Notes: generated by a model not told the origin, from the letters alone. Positions 8,025 through 55,188 are shown, numbered from the whole stretch's first letter. The stretch is 56,764 bases of DNA, filler included, from Sphacelaria rigidula (GCA_964200075.2; 7 parts of 7 records of this genome joined end to end with filler, not necessarily neighbours in it); one strand, 5' to 3'. Numbers and translations: made by a program.

Positions 8025-8124
8025 NNNNNNNNNNNNNNNNNNNNNNNNNNNNNNNNNNNNNNNNNNNNTTAATTAATTAANNNNNNNNNNNNNNNNNNNN
8101 NNNNNNNNNNNNNNNNNNNNNNNN
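8025..8124. other. Artificial contig spacer (44N-TTAATTAATTAA-44N)
   Basis: The same 100-nt spacer recurs every 8123-8124 nt. TTAATTAATTAA places stop codons in all six frames. Confidence 0.98.
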
Positions 8125-10928: not shown

Positions 10929-11210
10929 CTAACGGGAGGGAAACGGAGCCGAAACTGCCAGCTCCATCTTAATGCCTTCCTCTTCCCCATGAAATACCAC
11001 TGAGCAAGCATCCACATCAGCGTCTTCTGCCCGAAGGTGTTCACGAACCGTTGACGGCGTCCTACAAATGCGTTTCTCTGCTCTTCCATGACAACCATCG
11101 TTGGAGCTATTGCCTATCCTGCTGTTTCCACCCTTATCAGAGCAGGTGGCCAACCGAACCCTTCTTGGCAAGCCCTGCCGGGGACGCTGAAGGGGCACAG
11201 ACTCTTGCAT
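10929..11210 (-). pseudogene. Probable frameshifted C-terminal tail of the EsV-1-7 gene
   Basis: ORF overlaps the preceding stop (TAATG). It has basic clusters and ends …EEEGIKMELAVSAPFPSR, containing a psi-K-x-E motif. The link to the array is inference. Confidence 0.35.
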
Positions 11211-12352
11211 TACAACCCTCGTGTGGAGCCTCGTTGTCCGTGGTCCTCCTTCAGCACCCTTGGCGGGCCGTGACGGCGCGTTACACTTCCGGAACTTGAG
11301 AGCAAAACAGAGGCGAACCCGACATCACCTGCACCGCCATCGCGACTGGAATGGTTGAGTTGTCCGTCCTGTGTAGAAATGTTATCGAAGATGTCTTCCT
11401 GTTGCTCACGCTTGGTTGCAAAATATACATCATTCATATTGTGGTGTACAGCATGTTGGCTTACCCTGTCCAGTACAACGACATCAAAGCTGTACACACG
11501 CCGATTCGAGCAGCCGTTGTTGCCGCACTTCTTGCTCACCACCATCCCCATCATGTCGCGCTCGACGAATAACTCGGCCTCCCGGCTTCCCGCTACACCG
11601 GACGATGGATATTTTGAGCAGCCCTCGTTGGCACGTTTTTTACTCGTTACATCGTTCAGCCCTGCCCTCTCGTGATCGACATACAATCCCACCTTACGGC
11701 CTTTCGCTACACCGTACGATGAATGTTTGAAGCCGCCCTCATTATCGCACCTCTCGCTCGTCACTTCAATTTTCTCCGCCCTCGTGTGCTTGGCATAGAA
11801 CTTCGCGCCCATGCTTTTCGCTGCACCGTACGATGTTCCTTTGGTGCAGTGCTCGTCGCTGCACTTTTTCTTCGCTGTATTGACCATACCAGGCCTGGCG
11901 CGGTCGGCACAGAACTCCACCGACCGGCCGTCTGCTACCTCAAACGATAGTCGCATGGAGCAGCCCTCGTTGTCGCAGTTCTTGTCCACGACATCGATCA
12001 TCCCCGCCCTGGCATCGTGCCCGCAGACCTCCGCATTTGGGCTTTTCGCTATGCGGTACGATTGCCTCCTGGAGCAGTTCTCGTGACTGCAACACTCCCT
12101 GGCTACATCGACCATCCCCGCCCTCGCGTTTTCGGCACATGACACCGCACTCCGGTTTCTCCCTACACCGTACGATGGTTGTTTGGAGCCTTTATTGCCA
12201 CACTCTTCTTTGGCTTTAGTAACCATCCCTGCCCTTGCGTGTTCGGCACAGAACTCCGACTTCCGGCTTCCTGCTACACCATACGCTGGTTTCTTGGAGC
12301 AGCGCTCATTCCCACATGTCTTGTCCACTACATCGACCATCCCCACGCTGAA
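11210..12352 (-). pseudogene. In-frame continuation of the EsV-1-7 array beyond the TAG (~8 increasingly degenerate units plus a low-complexity tail)
   Basis: Same frame as 12353-14503 (…FCTK*FSVGMVDVVDKTCGNERC…). Later units lose Cys/His ligands. Confidence 0.75.
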
Positions 12353-14503
12353 CTATTTGGTACAAAACTCCGCCTTCCGGCGTCCCGCCACACCATATGA
12401 TGGTTGCTCGAAACAGCCCTCGTTGCTGCACGTTTTCTCCACTACATCGACCATCCCCGCCCTGGCGTGGTCGGCACAACGCTCCCCCTTCCGGCTACCC
12501 GCTATACCGTACAATGGTCGTTCGGAGCAGCTCTCACTGCCGCTCTTCTTGCTCCCTACATCAATCATCCCCGCCCTTGCGTGTTCGGCACATAACTCTG
12601 CGCTCCTCCCCGCTACACCAAATGATGGTTGTTTAGAACAGTCCTCATGGTCGCACCTATTTTTCACTACATCAATCATCCTCGCCCTGACGTGGTCGGC
12701 ACAGAACTCCGTCTTCCGGCTTTCCACTACACTGTACGATGGTTGCTTGGAGCAGCCCTCGTGGCCGCACTTCTTGCTTACTACATTGGCCATACCTACT
12801 CTCGCGTGGGCGGCACAGAACTCTGCCTTCCGGCTTCCCGCTACACCGTACGTTGGATGCTTGAGGCAGCCCTCGTGGCCGCACTTCCTCCTCACTACAT
12901 CAACCATCCCCGTCCTGGTGTGTTTGGCACAGAACTCCGCCTTCCGGCTTCCCGCTACACCGTACGATGGATGCTTGAAGTAGCCCTCGTGGCCGCACTT
13001 CCTGCTCACTACATCAACCATCCCCGTCCTGGCGTGTGTGGCACAGAACTCCGTCTTCCGGCTTCCTGCTACACCGTACGTTGGATGCTTGAAGCAGCCC
13101 TCGTGGCCGCACTTCCTCCTCACTACGTCAACCATCCCCGTCCTGGCATGTTTGGCACAGAACTCCGTCTTCCGGCTACCCGCTACACCGTACGATGGAT
13201 GCTTGAAGCAGCCCTCGTGGCCGCACTTCCTCCTCACTACATTGACCATTCCCGTCCTAGCGTGTTCGGTACAGAGCTCCACCTTCCGACTGCCCACTAC
13301 AACGTGCGATGGTTGTTTAGAGCAGCTCTCATTGCCGCACTTCTTTTTCACTACATTGACCATCCCCGTCCTAGCGTGTTCGGCACAGAGCTCCGCCTTC
13401 CGGCTTCCCACTACACCATACGTTGGTTGTTTGGAGCAGCCCTCGTGGCCGCACTTTTTGCTCACTACATTGAACATTCCCGCCCTGGCGTGTTCGGCAT
13501 AGAGCTCCGCCTTCCGGCTTCCCGCCACACCGTACGTTGGTTGCCTGAAGCAGCCCTCGTGGCCGCACTTTTTGCTTACTACATTGACCATCCCTGCCCT
13601 GGTGTGGTTGGCACAGAACTGCGCCTTCCGGCTTCCGGCTACACCGTACGATGAATACTTGAAGCAGCCCTCGTGGCCGCACTTCTTGTTCACTATATCA
13701 ACCATCCCCGTCTTGACGTGTTCGGCACAGAACTCTGCCTTCCGGCTCCCCACCACACCGTACGTTGATTGCTTAAAGCAGCCCTCGTTGCCGCACTTCT
13801 TGCCCATAACATTGACCATCCCCGCCCTGGTGTGGTCGGCACAGAACTCCGCCAAGCGGCTTCCCGCTACATCAAACGATGGTTGCTTGGAGCAGCCCTC
13901 GTGGCCGCACTTCTTGCTCACAACATCGACCCTCCCCGTCCTAGCGTGTTCGGCACAAAACTGCGTCTTCCGGCTTCCCGCTACACCGTACGTTGGTTGC
14001 TTGGAGCAGCCCTCGTGGCCGCACTTCTTGCTCACCACATTGGCCATACCTACTCTCGCGTGGGCGGCACAGAACTCCTCCGAGCGACTTCCCCCTACAC
14101 CGTACGATGGATGCTTGAAGCAGCCCTCGTGGCCGCACTTCATGTTCGCTGCCTCAGTTATCCCTACCCTAGCGTGGTTGGCACAGACCTCCTCCTTCCG
14201 ACTGCCCGCTACACCATGGGATGGTCGTTTGGAGCAGCGCTCGTGGCCGCACTTCTTGTCCGCTATATCAGTCATCCCCGCCCTGGCGTGTTTAGCACAG
14301 AACTCCGCCTTCCGACTGCCCGCTACACCGTACGATGGTTGTTTGGAGCAGTTCTCATTGCCGCACTTCTTGTTCACTACATCAATCATGCCCGTCCTGG
14401 TGTGGTCGGCACAGAATCGCGCCTTCCGGCTTCCCGCTACACTATGCGATGATCGTTTGGAGCAAGCCCCGTGGCCGAACTTCTTGCTCACTGCATCAAT
14501 CAT
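12353..14503 (-). CDS. EsV-1-7 cysteine-rich repeat protein (~19 tandem 38-aa C-x4-C-x16-C-x2-H units before an in-frame TAG)
   Basis: ORF from ATG 14503 made of 114-nt units with consensus MVDVVSKKCGHEGCSKQPSYGVAGSRKAEFCAEHARAG, the EsV-1-7 motif of Ectocarpus siliculosus virus-1 and brown algal proteins such as IMMEDIATE UPRIGHT. An upstream exon cannot be excluded. Confidence 0.9.
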   Translation of the reverse strand: MIDAVSKKFGHGACSKRSSHSVAGSRKARFCADHTRTGMIDVVNKKCGNENCSKQPSYGVAGSRKAEFCAKHARAGMTDIADKKCGHERCSKRPSHGVAGSRKEEVCANHARVGITEAANMKCGHEGCFKHPSYGVGGSRSEEFCAAHARVGMANVVSKKCGHEGCSKQPTYGVAGSRKTQFCAEHARTGRVDVVSKKCGHEGCSKQPSFDVAGSRLAEFCADHTRAGMVNVMGKKCGNEGCFKQSTYGVVGSRKAEFCAEHVKTGMVDIVNKKCGHEGCFKYSSYGVAGSRKAQFCANHTRAGMVNVVSKKCGHEGCFRQPTYGVAGSRKAELYAEHARAGMFNVVSKKCGHEGCSKQPTYGVVGSRKAELCAEHARTGMVNVVKKKCGNESCSKQPSHVVVGSRKVELCTEHARTGMVNVVRRKCGHEGCFKHPSYGVAGSRKTEFCAKHARTGMVDVVRRKCGHEGCFKHPTYGVAGSRKTEFCATHARTGMVDVVSRKCGHEGYFKHPSYGVAGSRKAEFCAKHTRTGMVDVVRRKCGHEGCLKHPTYGVAGSRKAEFCAAHARVGMANVVSKKCGHEGCSKQPSYSVVESRKTEFCADHVRARMIDVVKNRCDHEDCSKQPSFGVAGRSAELCAEHARAGMIDVGSKKSGSESCSERPLYGIAGSRKGERCADHARAGMVDVVEKTCSNEGCFEQPSYGVAGRRKAEFCTK

Positions 14504-16082
14504 TCTTGCCAAAGCCGAAACGTACAAGGCAGAAGTTGCAAGATAAGGGGGTAAAATTGTAAGGACAACGTTTTGTGGGGCCAACAGTGCAAATCAATCA
14601 AAACTACCTAATTTGACCCTTCGCCACTGCCCTGCGCCCGAGTAGACGGCCAGCGAGTTATTCGATCTGGCAGGATTCCAGCACACATGGGCCGTTCTCG
14701 GTGCGTGCACTTTGACTCTGGGCGAGAAAAATGAAAATGGTGTACTTCGTACAAACCTTTTCGACTCACGAATAGGCATACGAGATCTGCATGTTGAACC
14801 GGTATGTACGAAATTGCACGTTTTTGTTCTCCTCTCAAGCAGCGTCAAACCTCGCACATTGAAAATCGTGTGCTGACGTGCTTTGATCGTAGAGCAAGTC
14901 ATCCCGAGGTCGCATAATCCGCCTGTCCGTCTCTTTACGCGAAACCCTCTGATAAAGGGTCAAAACAGGCGCTTTTGACCACTTCGCAAGTATCCCTCAG
15001 TAGAAGTGGTATGCAAAGTGACAAATGAAAACGAGGACCGTTTCTTTGCCGAGGGATCCAGCAATGAGATCCAGCAAGGCAGCGAAAAGAACGGAAAACA
15101 TTGAAGAAAACCATGAAGTACAAAGTGCCGGGTCGGGATGGAACGGGAACGTTTTCTGTCCCTCCAGACACCCACGGTACGGGGAAGTAGGAAATATGTC
15201 GGCACCAGACGGGATGGGTAGCCCTCCCCCTGAAAGACGACGAGAGGGAAAAACCCTTTGCGTGTTATCATGTTTTCCATGATGTTCTCTTGTGCAAGGC
15301 TGTGGATTGCCAAATAAGCTGCACAGGACAAGGTGATTTATCACGCATCGCGCTCCGACAACATACAAACCTCACTACCAGACGAAGGTCTCAGGTGGGC
15401 GCAATCGCACATTGAATGGTATTCGATTAATTACATCCACCTGGAAACAAACTGTACGTAAAGGCGACCACACATGCCTTCGCGACCGCCACCCTTCCCA
15501 GTGCTGGCTCCGTCATTAGCGGAACAGATATATTGGGACAGATTTCCTCATGTGATTCGCTGGGATGAATCGGGTGTGCTGGTGTCGCGCCGGCTGTTGA
15601 TTATTTGTTCAAGTTCTTCTTTCAAAGCATCCGTAGTTTTGTAGATAATGACGGATATCGCAGGGTTTCGGGCTGTACGCTGCACGAGCTTTTACACAGC
15701 AAGCTCTAGCACGTGGCTGGCAGATCGAGGGTGGGAAAGATTTATATGCACTATATCTGTGATATATTGCTGCTTTGCATCGCGCTTCCAATTTTTCTTT
15801 TTTTTCCTTCGTTCTGACAGAAAAGGAAAAGAGTGAGAAGTCATGCGCCGTTCTAATCTAGCTACCTAAGGTGAGAAACAAGTGATACCGAGACGGTAAA
15901 ACAGCACTCGAACAGACCAGCGACTTCAAGGAGGGCGGCAGTCACGCGCAATATGGGTATTGTCGCAGGTCGAAACGCGGACTGCCTTCCGCACGAGAAA
16001 GCAATACAGGGAAAAACAATTGATACGTACTATTGCACTCGTACTGAAAATGCTATGTGGGTAACAACACGCAAACAGATCT

Positions 16083-16148: not shown

Positions 16149-16248
16149 NNNNNNNNNNNNNNNNNNNNNNNNNNNNNNNNNNNNNNNNNNNNTTAATTAA
16201 TTAANNNNNNNNNNNNNNNNNNNNNNNNNNNNNNNNNNNNNNNNNNNN
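16149..16248. other. Artificial contig spacer
   Basis: Same N/TTAATTAATTAA/N spacer. Confidence 0.98.
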
Positions 16249-24272: not shown

Positions 24273-24372
24273 NNNNNNNNNNNNNNNNNNNNNNNNNNNN
24301 NNNNNNNNNNNNNNNNTTAATTAATTAANNNNNNNNNNNNNNNNNNNNNNNNNNNNNNNNNNNNNNNNNNNN
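24273..24372. other. Artificial contig spacer
   Basis: Same spacer. Confidence 0.98.
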
Positions 24373-30151: not shown

Positions 30152-30950
30152 ATCAGCTCCCTATAGCTCGAGCAAGCTCTTTTTGAGCGTAGCTCCCTAG
30201 TGAGCTATGACAGCTACATGAGCTACGCATTTTTTCCTGGGGTGAGTGAGCTATGGGAGATGTATGAGCTACGCACGTTTGCGATAGGTAAGCTACCAAC
30301 CCGTAGCTCGTCAGCTCAGAATCGTCCTGGGTGAGCTATGGGAGCTGTATGAGCTACGCACGTTTGCGATAGGTGAGCTACCAGCCCGTAGCTCATCAGC
30401 TCAGAATCGCCCGGGGTGAGTTATGAGAGCTACATGAGCTACGCATGTTTGCCCTGGATGAGCTACTAACCCGTAGCTCACCAGCTCATATTCGCCCGGG
30501 GTGAGTTACGAGAGCTGCATGAGCTACGCATGTTTGCCCCGGATGAGCTATGGGAGCTGTATGACCTACGCATGTTTGCCCTGGATGAGCTACCAACCCG
30601 TAGCTCATCAGCTCATATTCGCCCGGGGTGAGTTATGAGAGCTGCATGAGCTACGCATGTTTGCCCCGGATGAGCTATGAGAGCTGTATGAGCTACGCAC
30701 GTTTGCGATAGGTAAGCTACCAACCCGTAGCTCACCAGCTCATATTCGCCCGGGGTGAGTTATGAGAGCTGCATGAGCTACGCATGTTTGCCCCGGATGA
30801 GCTATGGGAGCTGTATGAGCTACACATGTTTGCCCTGAATGAGCTATGAGAAATGCATCAGCTACACATGTTTACCCTGGATCAGCTAGGAGAGCTAGGT
30901 GAGCTGCGAGTAATTGCCCTGGATGAGCTATGAGAGCTATGAGAGCTACG
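30152..30950. repeat. GAGCT(A)-rich minisatellite with higher-order repeats
   Basis: Recurring blocks TGAGCTACGCA(C/T)GTTTGC, GAGCTACCAACCCGTAGCTCA(C/T)CAGCTCATATTCGCCCGGGGTGAGTTATGAGAGCTG. Confidence 0.9.
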
Positions 30951-31344: not shown

Positions 31345-31672
31345 CATCATGAGCGACACAGGGTTGGCCAGCGGCGAGCTAAGCATATGACGTGAGTGAG
31401 CCACGACCATGTGTCCCTGGGGTGAGTTACCAACCCGTCGCTCATCCGCTCATGTTTCCCCGAGTGAGCTACAAGAGCTGCATGAGCTACACATGTTTGC
31501 CTTGGGTGATCTATCGAGCGTAGCTCATCGGCATATGTTTTCCCTGAGGTGAGCTATGAGAGCTACATGAGCTACGCATGTTTGCCCTGGGTGAGCTACG
31601 AACTCGTAGCTCATCCGCGCACGTTTCCCTTGTGTTGAGATACCGCCCGCAGATGAGCTAGCTCATGACCTG
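31345..31672. repeat. Second, more degenerate block of the GAGCT minisatellite
   Basis: Same motifs. Ends GAGCTAGCTCATGACCTG. Confidence 0.8.
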
Positions 31673-32395: not shown

Positions 32396-32495
32396 NNNNN
32401 NNNNNNNNNNNNNNNNNNNNNNNNNNNNNNNNNNNNNNNTTAATTAATTAANNNNNNNNNNNNNNNNNNNNNNNNNNNNNNNNNNNNNNNNNNNN
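32396..32495. other. Artificial contig spacer
   Basis: Same spacer. Confidence 0.98.
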
Positions 32496-37509: not shown

Positions 37510-37859
37510 CACAGGCACCGTAGGTAAGGCACCGTACCGAGCGTACCCCCGGTATTTACCGGGGTATCCCATACTGTGGCATGCGTGGGTATCGCAGGTA
37601 TGAGTTTTGAAAATACCTGATTGAGCGGGTACGGCAGGTATGGAAATCTCGAAATACCGTGGTATCGCAGGTACCGTAGGTATGACATTTGAAAATACCC
37701 GATCGAGCAAGTACGGTAGGTATTGACATATCGAAATACCGTGGTATCGTAGATATCGTAGGTATGACATTTGAAAATGGTTGACTGGACCGGTATCGGT
37801 AGGGTATGAGATGTTCCAAATACCGGTACCGGATACCTACCTTACCTACGGTGCCTGTG
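37510..37859. mobile_element. hAT-type MITE, copy 1 (350 bp)
   Basis: Perfect 20-bp TIR CACAGGCACCGTAGGTAAGG / CCTTACCTACGGTGCCTGTG. Perfect 8-bp TSD CTTCTTTC. Internal GAAATACCGTGGTATCG repeats. Confidence 0.93.
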
Positions 37860-40518: not shown

Positions 40519-40618
40519 NNNNNNNNNNNNNNNNNNNNNNNNNNNNNNNNNNNNNNNNNNNNTTAATTAATTAANNNNNNNNNNNNNNNNNNNNNNNNNN
40601 NNNNNNNNNNNNNNNNNN
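40519..40618. other. Artificial contig spacer
   Basis: Same spacer. Confidence 0.98.
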
Positions 40619-48641: not shown

Positions 48642-48741
48642 NNNNNNNNNNNNNNNNNNNNNNNNNNNNNNNNNNNNNNNNNNNNTTAATTAATTAANNN
48701 NNNNNNNNNNNNNNNNNNNNNNNNNNNNNNNNNNNNNNNNN
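48642..48741. other. Artificial contig spacer
   Basis: Same spacer. Confidence 0.98.
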
Positions 48742-50041
48742 CGAAGCGGCCCGCCATGCTGCACCGCCTGCTCGTCACATTGCCCATGCCCGCTTGGGCG
48801 TGTGCGGCGCAGAACTCCGCCTTCCTGCTACCGGCTGCGCCGAACGATGGTCTTGTGAAGCAGCCCGCCTTGCTGCACCGCTGGCTCGTCACATTGACCA
48901 TGCCCGCTCGGGCGTGTGCGGCGCAGACCTCCGCCTTCCTGCTACCGGCTGCACCGAACGATGGTCGTGTGAAGCAGCCTTTCTCGCTGCACCGCTTGCT
49001 CCTCACATCGACCATGCCCGCTCTGGCGTGTCCGGCGCAGAACTCCGCCTTCCTGCTACCGGCTGCACCGAACGATGGTATAGTGGTGCAGCCCGCCTTG
49101 CTGCACCGCTTGTTCCTCACACTGACCATGCCCGCGCTGGCGTGTGCGGCGCAAACCTCCGCGTTCCCGCTACCGGCTGCACTGAACGATGGTATAGTGG
49201 AGCAGCCCTTCTCGCTGCACTGCTTGCTTTTCACATCGACCATGCCCGCTATGGCGTGTGCGGCGCAGAACTCCGCATCCCTGCTACCGGCTGCGCCGAA
49301 CGATGGCATAGTGGAGCAGCCCGCCTTGATGCACCGCCTGTTCCTCACACCGACCATGCCCGCTCGGGCGTGTGCGGCGCAGAACTCCGCCTTCCTGCTA
49401 CCGGCTGCGCCGAACGATGGTATAGTGGAGCAGCCCGCCTTGCTGCACCGCTTGCTCGTCACATTGACCATGCCCGCGCTGGCGTGTGCGGCGCAGACCT
49501 TCGCCTTCCTGCTACCGGCTGCGCCGAACGATGGTATAGTGGAGCAGCCCTTCTCGCTGCACTGCTTGCTTTTCACATCGACCATGCCCGCTCGGGCGTG
49601 TGCGGCGCAGAACTCTGCCTTCCTGCTACCGGCTACACCGAACGATGGTCTTGTGGTGCAGCTCGCCTTGCTGCACCGCTCGTTCCTCACACTGACCATG
49701 CCCGCTCGGGCGTGTGCGGCGCAGAACTCCGCCTTCCTGCTACCGGCTGCACCGAACGATGGGTATGTGGAGCAGCCCTTCTCGCTGCACCGCTTGCTCC
49801 GCACATCGACCATGCCCGCTCGGGCGTGTGCGGCGCAGAACTCCGCCTTCCTGCTACCGGCTGCACCGAACGATGGTGTTGTGGAGCAGCCCTCCTTGCT
49901 GCACCGCTTGCTCCTGACATCGACCATGCTCGCTCGGGCGTGTGCGGCGCAAAGCTCCGCCTTCCTGCTACCGGCTGTACCGAACGATGGGTATGTGGAG
50001 CAGCCCGCCTCGCTGCGCCGCTCGCTCCTCACATCGACCAT
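48742..50041 (-). CDS. EsV-1-7 cysteine-rich repeat protein, 3'-truncated by contig end (11 full 38-aa units plus a partial one)
   Basis: Open frame from ATG 50041 made of very homogeneous 114-nt units, consensus MVDVRSKRCSKAGCSTIPSFGAAGSRKAEFCAAHARAG. One more unit (CIHTSCTTRASYGIAGSRKAELCAAHA) lies in frame upstream of a TAA at 50048-50050. Confidence 0.9.
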
Positions 50042-53000
50042 GCCCGCTTAGGCGTGTGCGGCGCAAAGCTCCGCCTTCCTGCTACCCGCTATGCCATATG
50101 ATGCTCTCGTGGTGCAACTCGTGTGGATGCACAAGCTAGGCGTCCCGTGCACGACTGCACTAAAGAAGGTACAAAGTCGCGGTCGTTCCGCTGGTGCTTC
50201 TGCTGCTGCGATCCGCACCGTCACAAACCCCTTCACGAAGATCAGTTGACCAGTCCAGCAGCACCCTGCATCAACCAGGGAAGGTAAGATTAGGTCGTGC
50301 CCATGTGGAGGGCAGGTGAACCTTATAATAGTATCTCGGTCGCTTGTGGGTACGTCGGCCAGAGTAAAGTGACACATCAGCCGTGGAGTTAGCAGGCAAC
50401 AGAGAGAGAGCTGATACAGCAGGGTCATCACAGGGAGGGGGGGAGGGGGAGGGCTCTCAACATGAAGCGTTGTCTCTCACGTGTTTTCGCAGCGTGGCGG
50501 CACGGCTCAAGCGAAGGAGGGGGTGTCGAGGTCCGAAGATGCACAGAAATCTACAGGGTCGAGGTCGCTTGTATGGCTTCTCCACCAATCCGATTTGCAT
50601 GACACAGGACGGGCATGCAATCATTCTGTTTTGTGCATCTCGAATCGGGGGTTCCCCGCTAGAGTAACCATCAGTTCATGTGAGTGATATTCCTCAGCAA
50701 ATAAACGATTGATGCCGAAAGCCTGCACCAGGAGCATGGTGATGTGGAGGGGGGGAGCGCACGCCGATCCGTCACGTTTACAGCGTATTGTCATGTGCTT
50801 TCGGGAGACACCAACTCTTCCCGTGTGGGTACGCAACGGGTGCTCTAGCAAAGTGTGAGTTGGCCAACTTGGACAGAAACGCCTTCTGCTCACGCTACGG
50901 TAGAAGCACGTGGGACTATCGGCCCTACTGAAGATCTAGATCAGTGTACAGAGTAAAATCCAGCAATGATATTTCGTGGAAGTTTTCACACGTCAAACAA
51001 ATCATGATCTGTCTGAAACAACTGATCGAAAAAGACTCTCGAACCCATTGGTCCGAAACCACAGAATTTGTAGCCGTGGAGTTAGAAAAAGCAAGGCGCA
51101 ACCGTAGCGCTACTCGCCGTGGTCGGCGTCCGGCGCTGCAAGGAGCAACTATGGAGAAGGGGGAGCAAATGATGCGGATCATGATTCGGATCAATAAACT
51201 AAGAAGGGGGAAATTCAGATGGATCGTGTTCTGTCCGACGAGGAAAGGTTTGTCCGATCAAGTGAGAGTGGTATGTCACACCTTGGACAAAAAAATAGCA
51301 TAGAAAAATGTGCTTTGTAGAATTTTCAATTATACCCCTATTGCGAAATATCTTCAAAAGGTAGCTACTAAACCTTATCGGTTATTATGTACCCCGCACC
51401 CGTGCCGTCTAATACGAAATTGGAAGTATTGCGAAAAACCAAGGGTACGATTTCAGTGACAGCACCACCACCACGCTATCTATGCCTGATATTATGGTAA
51501 CATTCACCCACTTTCAGACCGAGACAAAAATGCGTGTGACAACGTGTAAAACGCACACAAGTGAGGTGTCGGAGTGTTTCAAGTTGCCGGGCAGACGTAC
51601 GTGCAGTAGGCTCGGGGATGGTACCATAGGAAGAGGTGGGGGTGAGCTCCGGCCTCACGAACGACCTAAAGGACGTCTTCCTGGCTGGTTGTCAATGCAA
51701 AAAAATGGCACACGTGATCATACACAATCACCCCTATTCGGAAGTCTGAGGAGAGTGCAGTCATTCCAGCATACCTCGTCAGTCACGGTCAGTACTACAC
51801 CAGAATCATACACAGTGTTGTTCCGTTGTCAGTAGTGTAGAGGCGGTATTTCGGAAGGTACGGCGTTCAAGCACAGCGCATTTGGCGTCTGATGACACTG
51901 AAACTCCACGTATGTATAGGTTGAGGCCGCAGGTAGCTTTGCCTGAGCAATATCAGCGGCTCAAGGCTGTTCGTACGCCGCGTGCGTGGGTTGAAACGAT
52001 CATTATCCACCATGCTGCCTCAACGCTTGGAATACTTCTCGCTTTTGAACGACGATTATGAAGGGCACGATATCGATGCGGAGGCAGCGGCCAGCCTAGT
52101 TGTTCAGGTTGGATCACATGTCGGTTGACCTACGCTCGCGGAAACACAGATGACAACCACCTGTCAGGCTTCGTCATATCGTCCAGGCTGCTTGCCCTAA
52201 TTCTTACACCCCGTCTCGGGCAATATGTGGCCGTACAGCCGAGTCGAAAAGAACAGTGTCTTACGCTAAGGACCATCACGAAGCCGTTCGGGAGGGGGAC
52301 AACGTCCTCTTCCAGACAGTACCAGGGATTGAAAAGGTGGCATCACGACAGACTGACCACCACGGGGGCGATTGCTGATGTATTTTAGTCCGGAGGATCA
52401 TAGTCAAGTTGCGAAGTTTGTTGGGCAGGCTCGCACGTGGATATATTTTGAGCCTTTTCGACATGCACCTAGTGGACCTTTTTGTGGAGTTTTCCCCATT
52501 TGATTCGCTCTCAAAGTGGGATCGAAAGCACTCGTCAGTTTTCATTGATCAATAGCGGAAATTCCAACGCTGCCGAGGTGCGGTTCACGTCGTACAGTCA
52601 GTCCAGCCCTGCCGGCTCGCAGTAAACAGTGTCAATTTCGTCAAATTCCGGGTGGGGTGATGAATTTCTCCGATATCAGGCGCTTACTCCGTACATCGTA
52701 AGATACACCCCTTGCTATCCGAGCGTCGTAGCCACCGGTCGTGTCTGTAGCTCCAGCTTTCCGTGCTGATGTGGACACCTCTCTTCCGAAGATGCGAGTC
52801 CCTTTCATCTCGAGACATTTCACGCTGAAAACATGCCCGTTTCAATGGAACCTGCACACTGCAGTAGAAGAAACAATTCCTGAAACGTCTCGTTGCGAAG
52901 GGACAGCTGTGTACAGCACAGAGAGGTAGCAAGGCGCAGCGCAGCACAGCGTCGCACCACACCGAAGCGCACCATGCAGTATCCATACGCCCATCTGAAG

Positions 53001-54916: not shown

Positions 54917-55188
54917 CACAGGCACCGTAGGTAAGGTACCGTACCGAGCGTACCCCTGGTCTTTACCAGGGTATCCCATACCGTGGTATGCGTAGGTATC
55001 GTAGGTATGAGTTTGAAAATACCGGATTGGCCGGGTACGGTGGGTACTGAAATCTCGAAATACCGTGGTATCGTAGGTATCGTAGGTACTGTATGACATC
55101 TGAAAATACCGGATTGGGTCGGTATCGGTAGGGTATGACATGTCCCAAATACCGGTACCGGATACCTACCTTACCTACGGTTCCTATG
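54917..55188. mobile_element. hAT-type MITE, copy 2 (272 bp)
   Basis: Same TIRs (right TIR has two substitutions). Perfect 8-bp TSD GAGCTTTT. One internal module fewer than copy 1. Confidence 0.93.

What the first reader, a model, noticed from the sequence alone, without database searches (positions are those of the whole stretch)
48742..50131. TALE-like architecture: near-identical 38-aa zinc-finger units with variation focused on a few fixed positions
Seen in sequence: PSFG-AGSRKAE-CAAHARAGM is nearly invariant across units. The residue just before PSF changes from unit to unit (Y,T,Y,R,I,I,M,I,I,R,R). So do the residues after MV (DVRS, SVRN, DVKS, NVTS, GVRN) and the pair before GC (EA, KE, EK, KA). 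Established: EsV-1-7 repeats occur in phaeoviruses and are expanded in brown algae, and their ligand is not well defined. Inference: a rigid basic scaffold with position-restricted variable residues is the design of TALE, PPR and C2H2 arrays. These proteins may therefore be modular, code-based nucleic-acid readers, for example of viral or transposon sequence, and a possible programmable binding platform.
Basis: partly seen in the sequence, partly recalled or inferred. Interest (0 to 1): 0.78.

Follow-up and report, generated by a model that had tools for sequence, protein, structure and literature searches.

The report
EsV-1-7 zinc-finger repeat array
This is a long tandem array of small cysteine-rich EsV-1-7 modules, a family already known from brown algae and giant viruses; its unit-to-unit differences do sit at preferred positions, but a TALE-like reading code is not shown.

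Summary
On the minus strand, 48743-50155, lie 13 head-to-tail 38-aa units (114 nt, no indels) with the pattern C-x4-C-x16-C-x2-H. Pfam calls them EsV_1_7_cys (E 2.6e-162). Changes between units are concentrated: 14 of 38 codons never change against 6.2 expected, and codon 17, just before P-S-F, changes most.

Three limits apply:
- The window's own linker cuts the array at 48742.
- An in-frame TAA separates unit 0 from unit 1.
- Units 1 and 12 have each lost a Cys ligand.

The variable positions are the ones that vary throughout the family (positions 17, 5 and 6, in algal and viral arrays). They also change fastest between ortholog-like pairs. dN/dS at these positions is not significantly above 1. 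The fold model shows small beta-rich modules whose mutual arrangement is uncertain, not a helical solenoid, so TALE and PPR membership fails.

DNA binding is plausible but only circumstantial. The units are basic. In giant-virus proteins, EsV-1-7 arrays sit on a conserved nuclease-like domain, where C2H2 fingers sometimes take their place. A published Ectocarpus transposase also carries the domain.

Verdict: a new member of a known family. The modular-code idea is untested.

The parts
50042..50155 (-). Unit 0. It is a diverged EsV-1-7 unit (CIHTSC...CAAH) whose codon 36 is the in-frame stop.
   Evidence: Translation. Strict motif hit at 50054-50131. Pfam PF19114 E 4.4e-10 on the ORF 50048-50431.
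50049..50051 (-). In-frame TAA at codon 36 of unit 0. The other units have CGA, AGC, ATA, AGA or CAA here.
   Evidence: It is either a nonsense mutation in a once longer CDS, or the stop upstream of a CDS that begins at the ATG at 50041.
48788..50041 (-). Units 1-11, each 114 nt. Unit k starts at 50041-114(k-1). Register: M1, C9, C14, P18-S19-F20, C31, H34, G38. Unit 1 has Arg at position 9.
48743..48787 (-). Unit 12, first 15 codons only (MGNVTSRRCSMAGRF). It has Arg at position 14 and is cut by the window joint.
48642..48741 (.). Artificial joint between window pieces: N44 + TTAATTAATTAA + N44. Sequence on its two sides need not be contiguous.
   Evidence: Six such joints occur, spaced about 8124 nt apart.
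11571..14497 (-). A second, older EsV-1-7 array in another window piece, used here as comparator. It has 25.7 copies of 114 nt at 75% match. The ORF 12353-14584 (743 aa) gives 19 Pfam stretches. Degenerate units follow a stop, in 11210-12346.

Best explanation
SHOWN. The locus is a gene, or a recently disabled copy, of the EsV-1-7 family (Pfam PF19114) in what looks like a brown-alga genome. It is a tandem array of at least 13 units of 38 aa, each with C-x4-C-x16-C-x2-H. The array is young and was built by tandem duplication and exchange between units. There are no indels, nucleotide identity is 87%, and neighbouring units share codon 16-17 haplotypes. Differences between units pile up at positions that are little constrained across the whole family (17, 3, 5-7, 11-12, 15, 30, 36). 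The ligands and the M-V-x-V, P-S-F-G, G-S-R-K-A-E-F-C and H-A-x-A-G scaffold stay fixed.

INFERRED. Each unit folds as a small zinc-bound module running from C9 to V4 of the next unit, with a knuckle, two short strands and a short helix that carries C31 and H34. Positions 5-8 form a basic, variable linker. The array most likely acts as a multi-finger DNA-binding domain, working like a poly-zinc-finger protein rather than like a TALE. Position 17 and the linker would be candidate specificity positions. A one-unit, one-base code is not shown.
For: Family membership: PF19114 E 2.6e-162 with 11 stretches. The best BFVD hit is EsV-1-7 of EsV-1, E 1.8e-25, 50% identity. 190 homologs at E<=1e-10; of the 120 listed, the named ones are mostly brown algae and some green algae, most of them Sphacelaria rigidula.

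A 38-aa spacing is the commonest in the family.

Concentration of change.

The same positions vary elsewhere:
- Within-protein diversity over 63 proteins with 4 or more units is highest at positions 17 (0.82), 5 (0.78) and 6 (0.77).
- Spearman correlation of array entropy is 0.51 with family entropy (P=0.002) and 0.59 with within-protein diversity (P=3e-4).
- Twelve other homogeneous arrays rank positions 17, 5, 6, 3 and 8 on top.
- The profile in 46 nuclease-like fusion proteins correlates with that in 87 array homologs, rho 0.71, P=2e-6.

Selection gradient. Position classes were defined from 465 homolog units, not from this array. Pairwise dN/dS is 0.41 for scaffold, 1.03 for middle and 1.71 for variable positions.

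Young array with local exchange: units 5-9 share ACT-AT[A/G] at codons 16-17, while units 1-4 and 10-11 have ACA-xxx. Unit identity of 0.78 sits at the top of the family range (median 0.50, maximum 0.79, 66 proteins).

Fold: AlphaFold2 on units 2-7 with 40 aligned sequences gives pLDDT 84.3. Per unit there is a strand at 20-22, a bridge at 30, a helix at 32-34 and a strand at 1-3 of the next unit. The Pfam profile covers the same span, residues 9-43.

DNA-binding inference:
- pI 9.9. Family units average +2.8 net charge and 90% are positive.
- BFVD look-alikes include giant-virus proteins named 'Endonuclease' and 'DNA primase'.
- The C-terminal 174 aa of P0109 has 235 relatives. Of the best 120, 92 carry PF19114 by my count of the table. 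Others carry C2H2 fingers (PF00096, PF12171) or a different Cys repeat.
- That domain keeps P-D ... E-x-D-E-x-Q-H ... F-x-P-D invariant in 20 of 20 aligned members.
- ESM Atlas structure look-alikes are Nucleocytoviricota clusters named 'Endonuclease family protein' (819 members, 61% with PF19114, TM 0.87). Feature look-alikes are DUF559, PvuRts1I-like and Vsr.
- An Ectocarpus Tc1/mariner transposase is reported with an N-terminal EsV-1-7 domain (PMC12477816, passage read).
Against: - No binding was measured by anyone in the papers I could read. [quoted passage not shown]
- The nuclease assignment is weak. DUF559 reaches only E 0.0032 (17.7 bits, below the 20.6 cut-off) in P0109. It hits 0 of 20 aligned members at E<=0.05. 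The PDB profile search found nothing relevant. Atlas feature scores are 0.83-0.86, which the tool rates as leads only.
- No solved fold matches the model. The best Foldseek E-value is 2.0, the best VIA Z is 3.3 to RING domains, and the second look found none.
- In this array, selection tests cannot reject neutrality. Overall pN/pS is 1.01. Tree counts give omega 0.90 overall (P=0.68), 0.43 for scaffold (P=0.11) and 1.42 for variable positions (P=0.48), and the scaffold-versus-variable Fisher test gives P=0.18.
- This copy carries an in-frame TAA and two lost ligands, so it may no longer make a full protein.
- Array 2 in the same window does not follow the family variability profile (rho 0.03 and -0.02).
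- Array 1 does not correlate with the nuclease-fusion set (rho 0.17, P=0.34).
- pTM 0.39 means the mutual arrangement of units is unknown.
Confidence: 0.55

Rival explanations
1. This copy is a decaying pseudogene, a coding minisatellite that drifts. On this view the pattern of variation is inherited from functional ancestors plus unequal crossing-over, and it says nothing about a present function of this locus.
For: - In-frame TAA at 50049-50051 between unit 0 and unit 1.
- Cys9 to Arg in unit 1 and Cys14 to Arg in unit 12.
- Overall pN/pS 1.01 and omega 0.90, not different from 1.
- Variable nucleotide columns are 17:12:10 by codon position, so there is no third-position excess.
- Array 2 in the same window also ends in degenerate units after a stop.
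Against: - All four ligands are intact in the ten inner units 2-11.
- 14 codons never change against 6.2 expected.
- The changes follow the family's constraint profile (rho 0.51-0.59).
- 9 of the 22 homologs whose ends I printed are Sphacelaria rigidula gene models that begin exactly at the M-V-[DN]-V of a unit. A CDS starting at the ATG at 50041, just after the TAA, would be an ordinary gene model.
- The 433-codon frame downstream is open up to the window joint.
Confidence: 0.3
2. The array is a protein-protein or other non-nucleic-acid interaction scaffold. Many small treble-clef-like fingers (RING, LIM) work this way. The variable surface positions would then tune partner choice.
For: The only structural resemblances found, all weak, are to RING domains (Z 3.3-2.4), the coronavirus nsp13 zinc-binding domain and LIM domains. 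No DNA-binding family was hit by sequence or fold. Algal EsV-1-7 proteins carry no other Pfam domain (passage in bioRxiv 10.64898/2026.04.27.720984).
Against: Strong positive charge across the family. Recurrent fusion to a nuclease-like domain, interchangeably with C2H2 arrays. A reported transposase fusion. Z scores near 3 are within what the tool calls common arrangements.
Confidence: 0.15
3. The array reads RNA, as a multi-knuckle RNA binder, rather than DNA.
For: Basic modules with conserved aromatic residues: F/Y at positions 20 and 30 in 92% and 86% of family units. No data separate DNA from RNA.
Against: The fusion partners found act on DNA: a nuclease-like PD..ExD domain, 'DNA primase' and 'Endonuclease' names in BFVD, and a transposase.
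Confidence: 0.1
4. On this view the array is a TALE-like code in which each near-identical unit reads one base or a short word through one or two specificity residues, under diversifying selection.
For: - Position 17 is the most variable position in this array and across the family, and positions 5 and 6 follow.
- Its commonest residues are R, Q, H and I in algal units and Q, R, I and K in viral fusion units. R, Q and H are typical base-contacting residues, a point I recall and did not test.
- Nuclease-like domains 86-100% identical carry arrays that differ in unit number and in position-17 strings. Some of those proteins may be partial.
- Omega at family-variable positions is 1.4-1.7.
Against: - Omega above 1 is not significant (P=0.48).
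- Variation is spread: the top two positions hold about 18% of the summed diversity (my sum of the array 1 column).
- Neighbouring units share position-17 states (I,I,M,I,I and R,R) together with a linked synonymous marker. The states are therefore partly copies, not independent choices.
- Hypervariable positions also change fastest between ortholog-like pairs: position 17 differs in 50% of 38 unit pairs against a mean of 26%. This fits relaxed constraint as well as an arms race.
- There is no helical solenoid and pTM is low.
Confidence: 0.15

Closest known systems
EsV-1-7 protein of Ectocarpus siliculosus virus 1 (UniProt Q8QNQ2) and Pfam family PF19114 EsV_1_7_cys
   Same: Same repeat: C-x4-C-x16-C-x2-H with a 38-aa period. 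Pfam E 2.6e-162. BFVD match E 1.8e-25 at 50% identity over 221 columns.
   Different: The window array has at least 13 units. Family proteins with 4 or more strict units mostly have 4-7, and the maximum among 66 proteins was 11. Units here are unusually alike, 0.78 against a median of 0.50.
Brown-algal EsV-1-7 domain proteins, including IMMEDIATE UPRIGHT (IMM) of Ectocarpus, and unnamed Sphacelaria rigidula proteins
   Same: Arrays of the same unit with no other Pfam domain. The family runs to 95-335 genes per genome, often in tandem (passages read). The nearest named proteins are from Sphacelaria rigidula, 54-71% identity over part of the query. 9 of the 22 homologs whose ends I printed, all Sphacelaria rigidula, start at M1 of a unit as a CDS at 50041 would.
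   Different: No protein identical to the window's was returned. IMM has five repeats plus a unique N-terminal domain; no such domain is seen here. The C-terminal tail with K-R-L-R-R and D-V-K-L-E-L that the Sphacelaria relatives share cannot be checked, because the window joint cuts the array.
Giant-virus (Nucleocytoviricota) proteins with an EsV-1-7 array and a C-terminal nuclease-like domain, named 'Endonuclease' in UniProt/BFVD
   Same: The same finger unit and the same variability profile (rho 0.71). The arrays have 1-9 units.
   Different: They carry a conserved domain of about 170 aa with P-D ... E-x-D-E-x-Q-H, which the visible part of the window gene lacks. Their units are richer in N, K and I.
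C2H2 poly-zinc-finger proteins
   Same: Working analogy only: tandem small zinc modules, basic, with variable unit number and fast-changing surface positions. C2H2 fingers replace EsV-1-7 fingers on the same nuclease-like domain in 2 of 120 relatives.
   Different: Different ligand pattern and spacing, with no Pfam zf-C2H2 match. The linker here (positions 5-8) is among the most variable parts. The C2H2 linker is conserved, a point I recall and did not test.
TALE repeats of Xanthomonas effectors
   Same: Tandem near-identical units of similar length (34 against 38 aa), with one position standing out in variability.
   Different: No zinc ligands in TALEs (recalled). The TALE unit is two helices in a superhelix (recalled), whereas the model here is mostly strand and coil with a 3-residue helix. 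Variation here involves 21 of 38 positions. There is no Pfam TAL_effector match.

Membership tests
EsV-1-7 cysteine-rich repeat (Pfam PF19114) | Match to the family HMM above its gathering score | tested here: met
   526.7 bits against a cut-off of 25, E 2.6e-162, 11 stretches. A single unit gives 60.9 bits.
EsV-1-7 cysteine-rich repeat (Pfam PF19114) | C-x4-C-x16-C-x2-H ligand pattern repeated every 38 residues | tested here: met
   11 strict hits spaced 114 nt apart (a 228-nt step spans unit 1, which lacks Cys9): unit 0 and units 2-11. Units 1 and 12 each lack one Cys. The spacing of 38 is the commonest in homologs.
EsV-1-7 cysteine-rich repeat (Pfam PF19114) | Zinc is actually bound by the four ligands | not testable with these tools
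   Inferred from invariant C, C, C and H in the alignment of 40 sequences.
TALE repeat array | Two-helix repeat units forming a helical solenoid | tested here: not met
   DSSP on the AlphaFold2 model (pLDDT 84.3) shows one 3-residue helix and short strands per unit, and no helix of 4 or more residues.
TALE repeat array | Variation essentially confined to two adjacent residues per unit | tested here: not met
   21 of 38 positions vary and 9 have diversity of 0.5 or more. The variable positions are scattered over 3-17, 30 and 36.
TALE repeat array | Sequence match to the TAL effector repeat family | tested here: not met
   Six Pfam families were reported at E<=0.01 and none is a TAL effector family.
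TALE repeat array | One repeat reads one DNA base | not testable with these tools
   This needs binding assays.
C2H2 zinc finger array | C-x2-4-C-x12-H-x3-5-H pattern and a Pfam zf-C2H2 match | tested here: not met
   The pattern is C-x4-C-x16-C-x2-H. zf-C2H2 is not among the Pfam hits.
C2H2 zinc finger array | Beta-beta-alpha fold | tested here: inconclusive
   The model has two short strands and a very short helix per unit. No solved chain matched: Foldseek E>=2.0, VIA Z<=3.3.
PPR repeat array | 35-aa helix-turn-helix units | tested here: not met
   No helix of 4 or more residues in the model, and no PPR family among the Pfam hits.

The most novel reading that the evidence does not exclude
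EsV-1-7 arrays are modular, sequence-specific DNA readers. Each 38-aa finger would contact a short word through position 17 and the linker positions 5 and 6. Giant viruses would use them as natural zinc-finger nucleases with swappable arrays. Brown algae would have expanded them into hundreds of fast-evolving regulators or genome-defence factors, of which this young 13-unit array is one.
Probability: 0.15. Interest if true: 0.8.

Novelty: new member of a known kind. Interest (0 to 1): 0.38.

Why it matters
EsV-1-7 proteins form one of the largest gene-family expansions in brown algae and include the developmental regulator IMM. The papers I could read still call their biochemical function unknown.

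This locus adds nothing new in kind. Three family-wide points found on the way make the DNA-binding idea directly testable:
- One position, 17, just before the conserved Pro, stands out in variability in both algal and viral arrays.
- The linker is basic and variable.
- The arrays sit on a conserved nuclease-like domain in giant viruses, where C2H2 fingers can replace them.

If the arrays do read DNA in a modular way, they would be a new class of poly-finger DNA binder. That would explain both the algal expansion and the viral fusions.

Tried and rejected
The runs were found with a script instead.
- no whole genome is held for this window. I used 431-465 units from homologous proteins instead.
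- zf-primase (33.6 bits) and SBP (30.8 bits) exceed their whole-protein cut-offs, but no single stretch passes. I read them as summed weak Cys-pattern matches and rejected them.
- DUF1490 on array 2 (E 4.9e-27) was not followed and is probably a repeat artefact.
- profile searches of PDB sequences found only low-complexity matches (E 0.31) or an A20-finger match (E about 3).
- no solved fold matched clearly. This does not show that the fold is new.
- the single-unit AlphaFold2 model failed (pLDDT 51.6), so no single-domain fold search was made. No coordinates are returned, so the 'one face' test could not be run.
- no RNA holder is listed for this stretch.
- only short contigs were laid.
  - Depth over the array reaches about 75,000 against about 100-1,000 in the flank in X1. 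The tool says this is not a copy number, so I draw nothing from it.
  - Contigs of X6 and X7, one study whose RNA status is a guess, match 50104-50218 and stop near 50267. There the minus strand reads a pyrimidine-rich run followed by AG. X1 and X3 bridge the place. This does not meet the tool's bar for even a weak hint, so I do not use it.
  - No difference was listed at 50049-50051, which does not prove the TAA.
- among longer proteins, 10 hits. Fusions with UCH/MYND (P0122) and reverse transcriptase (P0129) look like merged gene models or element insertions and were not used.
- DUF559 was found in 0 of 20 members of the nuclease-like domain alignment.
- my loose regex found an 'EsV-like' motif in 100 of 120 proteins. 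That count is inflated, because a conserved Cys motif at the junction to the C-terminal domain also fits it. I use the precomputed Pfam count of 92 of 120 instead.
- mean nucleotide differences by lag between units (11.3-16.0) show no clean higher-order repeat.
- ten other long ORFs of the window have no Pfam match, and Rfam found nothing.
- no earlier findings of this scan.
- the founding paper, Macaisne et al. 2017 in Development, is not held. What I say of it comes from papers that cite it. Supplementary tables of the Phaeoexplorer preprint (Table S17, the list of EsV-1-7 proteins) were not seen and may hold this gene.
- only one held paper contains both 'EsV-1-7' and 'endonuclease', and it is the transposon paper. 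That is the basis for saying I found no printed account of the nuclease fusions.
- A resemblance of the ligand spacing to GATA-type treble-clef fingers is recalled only and was not tested.


Full report
WHAT IS THERE

The window is not one continuous stretch. It is seven pieces of about 8 kb, joined by N44 + TTAATTAATTAA + N44 linkers. The finding lies at the start of the last piece.

Tandem Repeats Finder reports one array at 48745-50090: period 114, 11.8 copies, 87% matches and no indels. The coding frame is on the minus strand.

In register, M1 of unit 1 is the ATG at 50041 and unit k starts at 50041-114(k-1). There are 11 full units, a twelfth cut after 15 codons by the linker at 48742, and a more diverged unit 0 at 50155-50042. 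Each unit reads M-V-x-V-x-x-K-R-C-x4-C-x-T-x-P-S-F-G-A-A-G-S-R-K-A-E-F-C-A-A-H-A-x-A-G.

Pfam assigns the array to PF19114 EsV_1_7_cys (E 2.6e-162, 11 stretches). A six-frame scan finds the strict C-x4-C-x16-C-x2-H pattern in unit 0 and units 2-11.

- Codon 36 of unit 0 is an in-frame TAA (50049-50051).
- Unit 1 has Arg for Cys9.
- Unit 12 has Arg for Cys14.

IS THE POSITIONAL PATTERN REAL?

17 of 38 positions are invariant in the 11 full units, and position 17 (before P-S-F) has the highest entropy.

Parsimony on a UPGMA tree of the units gives 68 nucleotide changes:
- 14 codons have none, against 6.2 expected (P=1.5e-4).
- Codon 17 has 11, against a null maximum of 5.2 (P=1.5e-4).
- 44 of the 68 changes fall in codons 3-17 (P=3e-5).

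So the concentration is more than chance. Exchange between units makes such counts upper bounds. That exchange is visible: units 5-9 share the haplotype ACT-AT[A/G] at codons 16-17, while units 1-4 and 10-11 have ACA-xxx. The run I,I,M,I,I at position 17 is therefore partly one state copied to neighbours.

The focus is also much broader than in a two-residue code. 21 positions vary and about 9 have diversity of 0.5 or more.

SELECTION

The invariant amino-acid positions are mostly invariant at the nucleotide level too. This shows the array is young. Variable nucleotide columns split 17:12:10 by codon position, and pN/pS over all 55 unit pairs is 1.01.

To avoid circularity I defined scaffold, middle and variable positions from 465 units of homologous proteins.

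| Measure | Scaffold | Middle | Variable |
|---|---|---|---|
| Array 1, pairwise dN/dS | 0.41 | 1.03 | 1.71 |
| Array 2, pairwise dN/dS | 0.29 | 0.48 | 0.86 |
| Array 1, tree-based omega | 0.43 | 0.82 | 1.42 |

Array 2 is the older array in the same window. For array 1, none of the tree-based values differs significantly from 1 (P=0.11, 0.76 and 0.48). The scaffold-versus-variable contrast is not significant either (Fisher P=0.18). In array 2 the scaffold class is significantly below 1 (P=0.001).

The data fit purifying selection on the scaffold and near-neutral or mildly positive change elsewhere. Diversifying selection is not established.

THE SAME POSITIONS VARY ACROSS THE FAMILY

A search of 5.8 billion proteins gave 190 hits at E<=1e-10. 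The 120 listed are from brown algae (many from Sphacelaria rigidula at 54-71% identity, also Ectocarpus, Pylaiella, Laminaria, Scytosiphon and Ascophyllum), some green algae and many metagenomes.

I extracted 431 strict units from 113 of these 120 proteins:
- Family conservation marks M1, V4, K7, the four ligands, P18, F/Y20, G/N21, G24, F/Y30, A35 and G38.
- Diversity between the units of one protein (63 proteins with 4 or more units) peaks at positions 17 (0.82), 5 (0.78) and 6 (0.77).
- The array's entropy profile correlates with both measures (rho 0.51 and 0.59).

Twelve other homogeneous arrays rank positions 17, 5, 6, 3 and 8 on top.

I picked 13 non-overlapping ortholog-like pairs from the 23 found at 65% identity or more. 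Twelve gave usable units, 38 unit pairs in all. The positions that differ most between units also differ most between the pair members (rho 0.60). Position 17 differs in 50% of unit pairs against a mean of 26%.

The hypervariable residues are therefore not conserved unit identities. They turn over quickly, which fits relaxed constraint or an arms race equally well. Orthology of these pairs was not verified.

The array is unusual only in degree. It has at least 13 units where most relatives have 4-7, and unit identity of 0.78 at the top of the family range. Array 2 shows that 19-26 units occur in this genome.

STRUCTURE

AlphaFold2 on units 2-7 with 40 aligned sequences gave pLDDT 84.3 but pTM 0.39. 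Each unit shows:
- a strand at positions 20-22
- a bridge at position 30
- a 3-residue helix at positions 32-34, which holds C31 and H34
- a strand at positions 1-3 of the next unit

The structural module thus runs from C9 to V4 of the next unit, as the Pfam profile does. Positions 5-8 are a basic, variable linker. This is not a helical solenoid, and the mutual arrangement of the units is not predicted with confidence.

No solved structure matches. The best Foldseek E-value is 2.0, and the best VIA Z is 3.3, to RING domains. The PDB sequence profile search also found nothing.

A single-unit model failed. Coordinates are not returned, so the test of whether the variable positions line one face could not be made.

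WHAT IT PROBABLY DOES

The papers I could read call the family a possible novel zinc finger of unknown function. It is hugely expanded in brown algae, shared with giant viruses, and includes the developmental regulator IMM (passages read). None of the passages I read reports binding data, and the phrases 'DNA-binding' and 'nucleic acid' are absent from the 2026 preprint.

Three lines point to DNA.

1. Charge. This protein has pI 9.9. Family units average +2.8 net charge and 90% are positive.

2. Viral look-alikes. In BFVD they include giant-virus proteins named 'Endonuclease' and 'DNA primase'. I followed one metagenomic relative, P0109, which has six units plus a C-terminal domain.
   - That domain has 235 relatives.
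   - Of the best 120, 92 carry PF19114 in front of it.
   - Two carry C2H2 fingers instead. Several carry a different 19-aa Cys repeat or C4 variants of the unit.
   - The domain keeps P-D ... E-x-D-E-x-Q-H ... F-x-P-D invariant.
   - Its Atlas look-alikes are Nucleocytoviricota 'Endonuclease family' clusters by structure, and DUF559, PvuRts1I-like and Vsr by features.
   - Nuclease-like domains 86-100% identical carry arrays that differ in unit number and in position-17 strings. Some of those proteins may be partial.
   - The variability profile of these viral arrays matches the algal one (rho 0.71).

3. [quoted passage not shown]

The weak point is the nuclease assignment. DUF559 is below its cut-off in P0109 and absent in 20 of 20 aligned members. 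PDB gives nothing, and the Atlas feature scores are below the tool's trust level.

Swappable finger arrays on one enzyme-like domain are what one expects of a targeting module. It remains an inference all the same.

VERDICT

The locus is a young, long member of the known EsV-1-7 family, and possibly a disabled copy.

The 'TALE-like' label fails on fold and on how sharply variation is focused. 'Works like a poly-zinc-finger DNA binder' is the best-supported mechanism, at roughly even odds. A modular code is possible but untested, at about 0.15.

Noticed in passing
window 8025-8124, 16149-16248, 24273-24372, 32396-32495, 40519-40618, 48642-48741: The window is seven pieces of about 8024 nt, joined by N44 + TTAATTAATTAA + N44 linkers. 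Features at piece edges are cut, and neighbouring pieces need not be contiguous.
   Followed up: yes
window 11210-14584, minus strand: A second, much longer EsV-1-7 array: 25.7 copies at 75% match. The ORF 12353-14584 (743 aa) gives 19 Pfam stretches. After a stop come about 8 degenerate units that have lost Cys ligands. Its per-position variability does not follow the family profile (rho about 0), unlike array 1.
   Followed up: partly
proteins P0109 and P0131-P0249 (metagenomes, giant viruses), not in the window: A conserved C-terminal domain of about 170 aa, with invariant P-D ... E-x-D-E-x-Q-H ... F-x-P-D, is fused to interchangeable N-terminal Cys-rich arrays. These are EsV-1-7 in 92 of 120, C2H2 in 2, a distinct 19-aa C-x2-C-x5-C-x-H repeat in several, and C4 variants of the EsV unit. 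They look like natural finger-nuclease fusions. Only one held paper contains both 'EsV-1-7' and 'endonuclease', and it is the transposon paper.
   Followed up: partly
proteins P0122, P0163, P0194; window 49676-49813: Pfam PF24906 (Zf_WRKY19) co-occurs with PF19114 in some relatives. It gives a weak hit on a single window unit (E 0.11) and on P0009 (E 0.02). The two Pfam models may describe related fingers, which would bear on the statement that land plants lack the family.
   Followed up: no
C-terminal tails of Sphacelaria rigidula relatives (P0007, P0008, P0012, P0031, P0035, P0047, P0054, P0084): These relatives share a tail with a basic K-R-L-R-R cluster, which looks like a nuclear localisation signal (my inference), followed by D-V-K-L-E-L. 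The window gene is cut before any such tail.
   Followed up: no
window 48756-50101, plus strand: Two further frames on the opposite strand are also open across the array (431 and 435 aa). A stop-free 114-nt unit explains this, and there is no family match for them.
   Followed up: partly
window 30200-30938, 31408-31630, 37588-37778, 54992-55132: There are other tandem repeats with periods of 41-46, 82-85, 127 and 212 nt, unrelated to the finger arrays.
   Followed up: no
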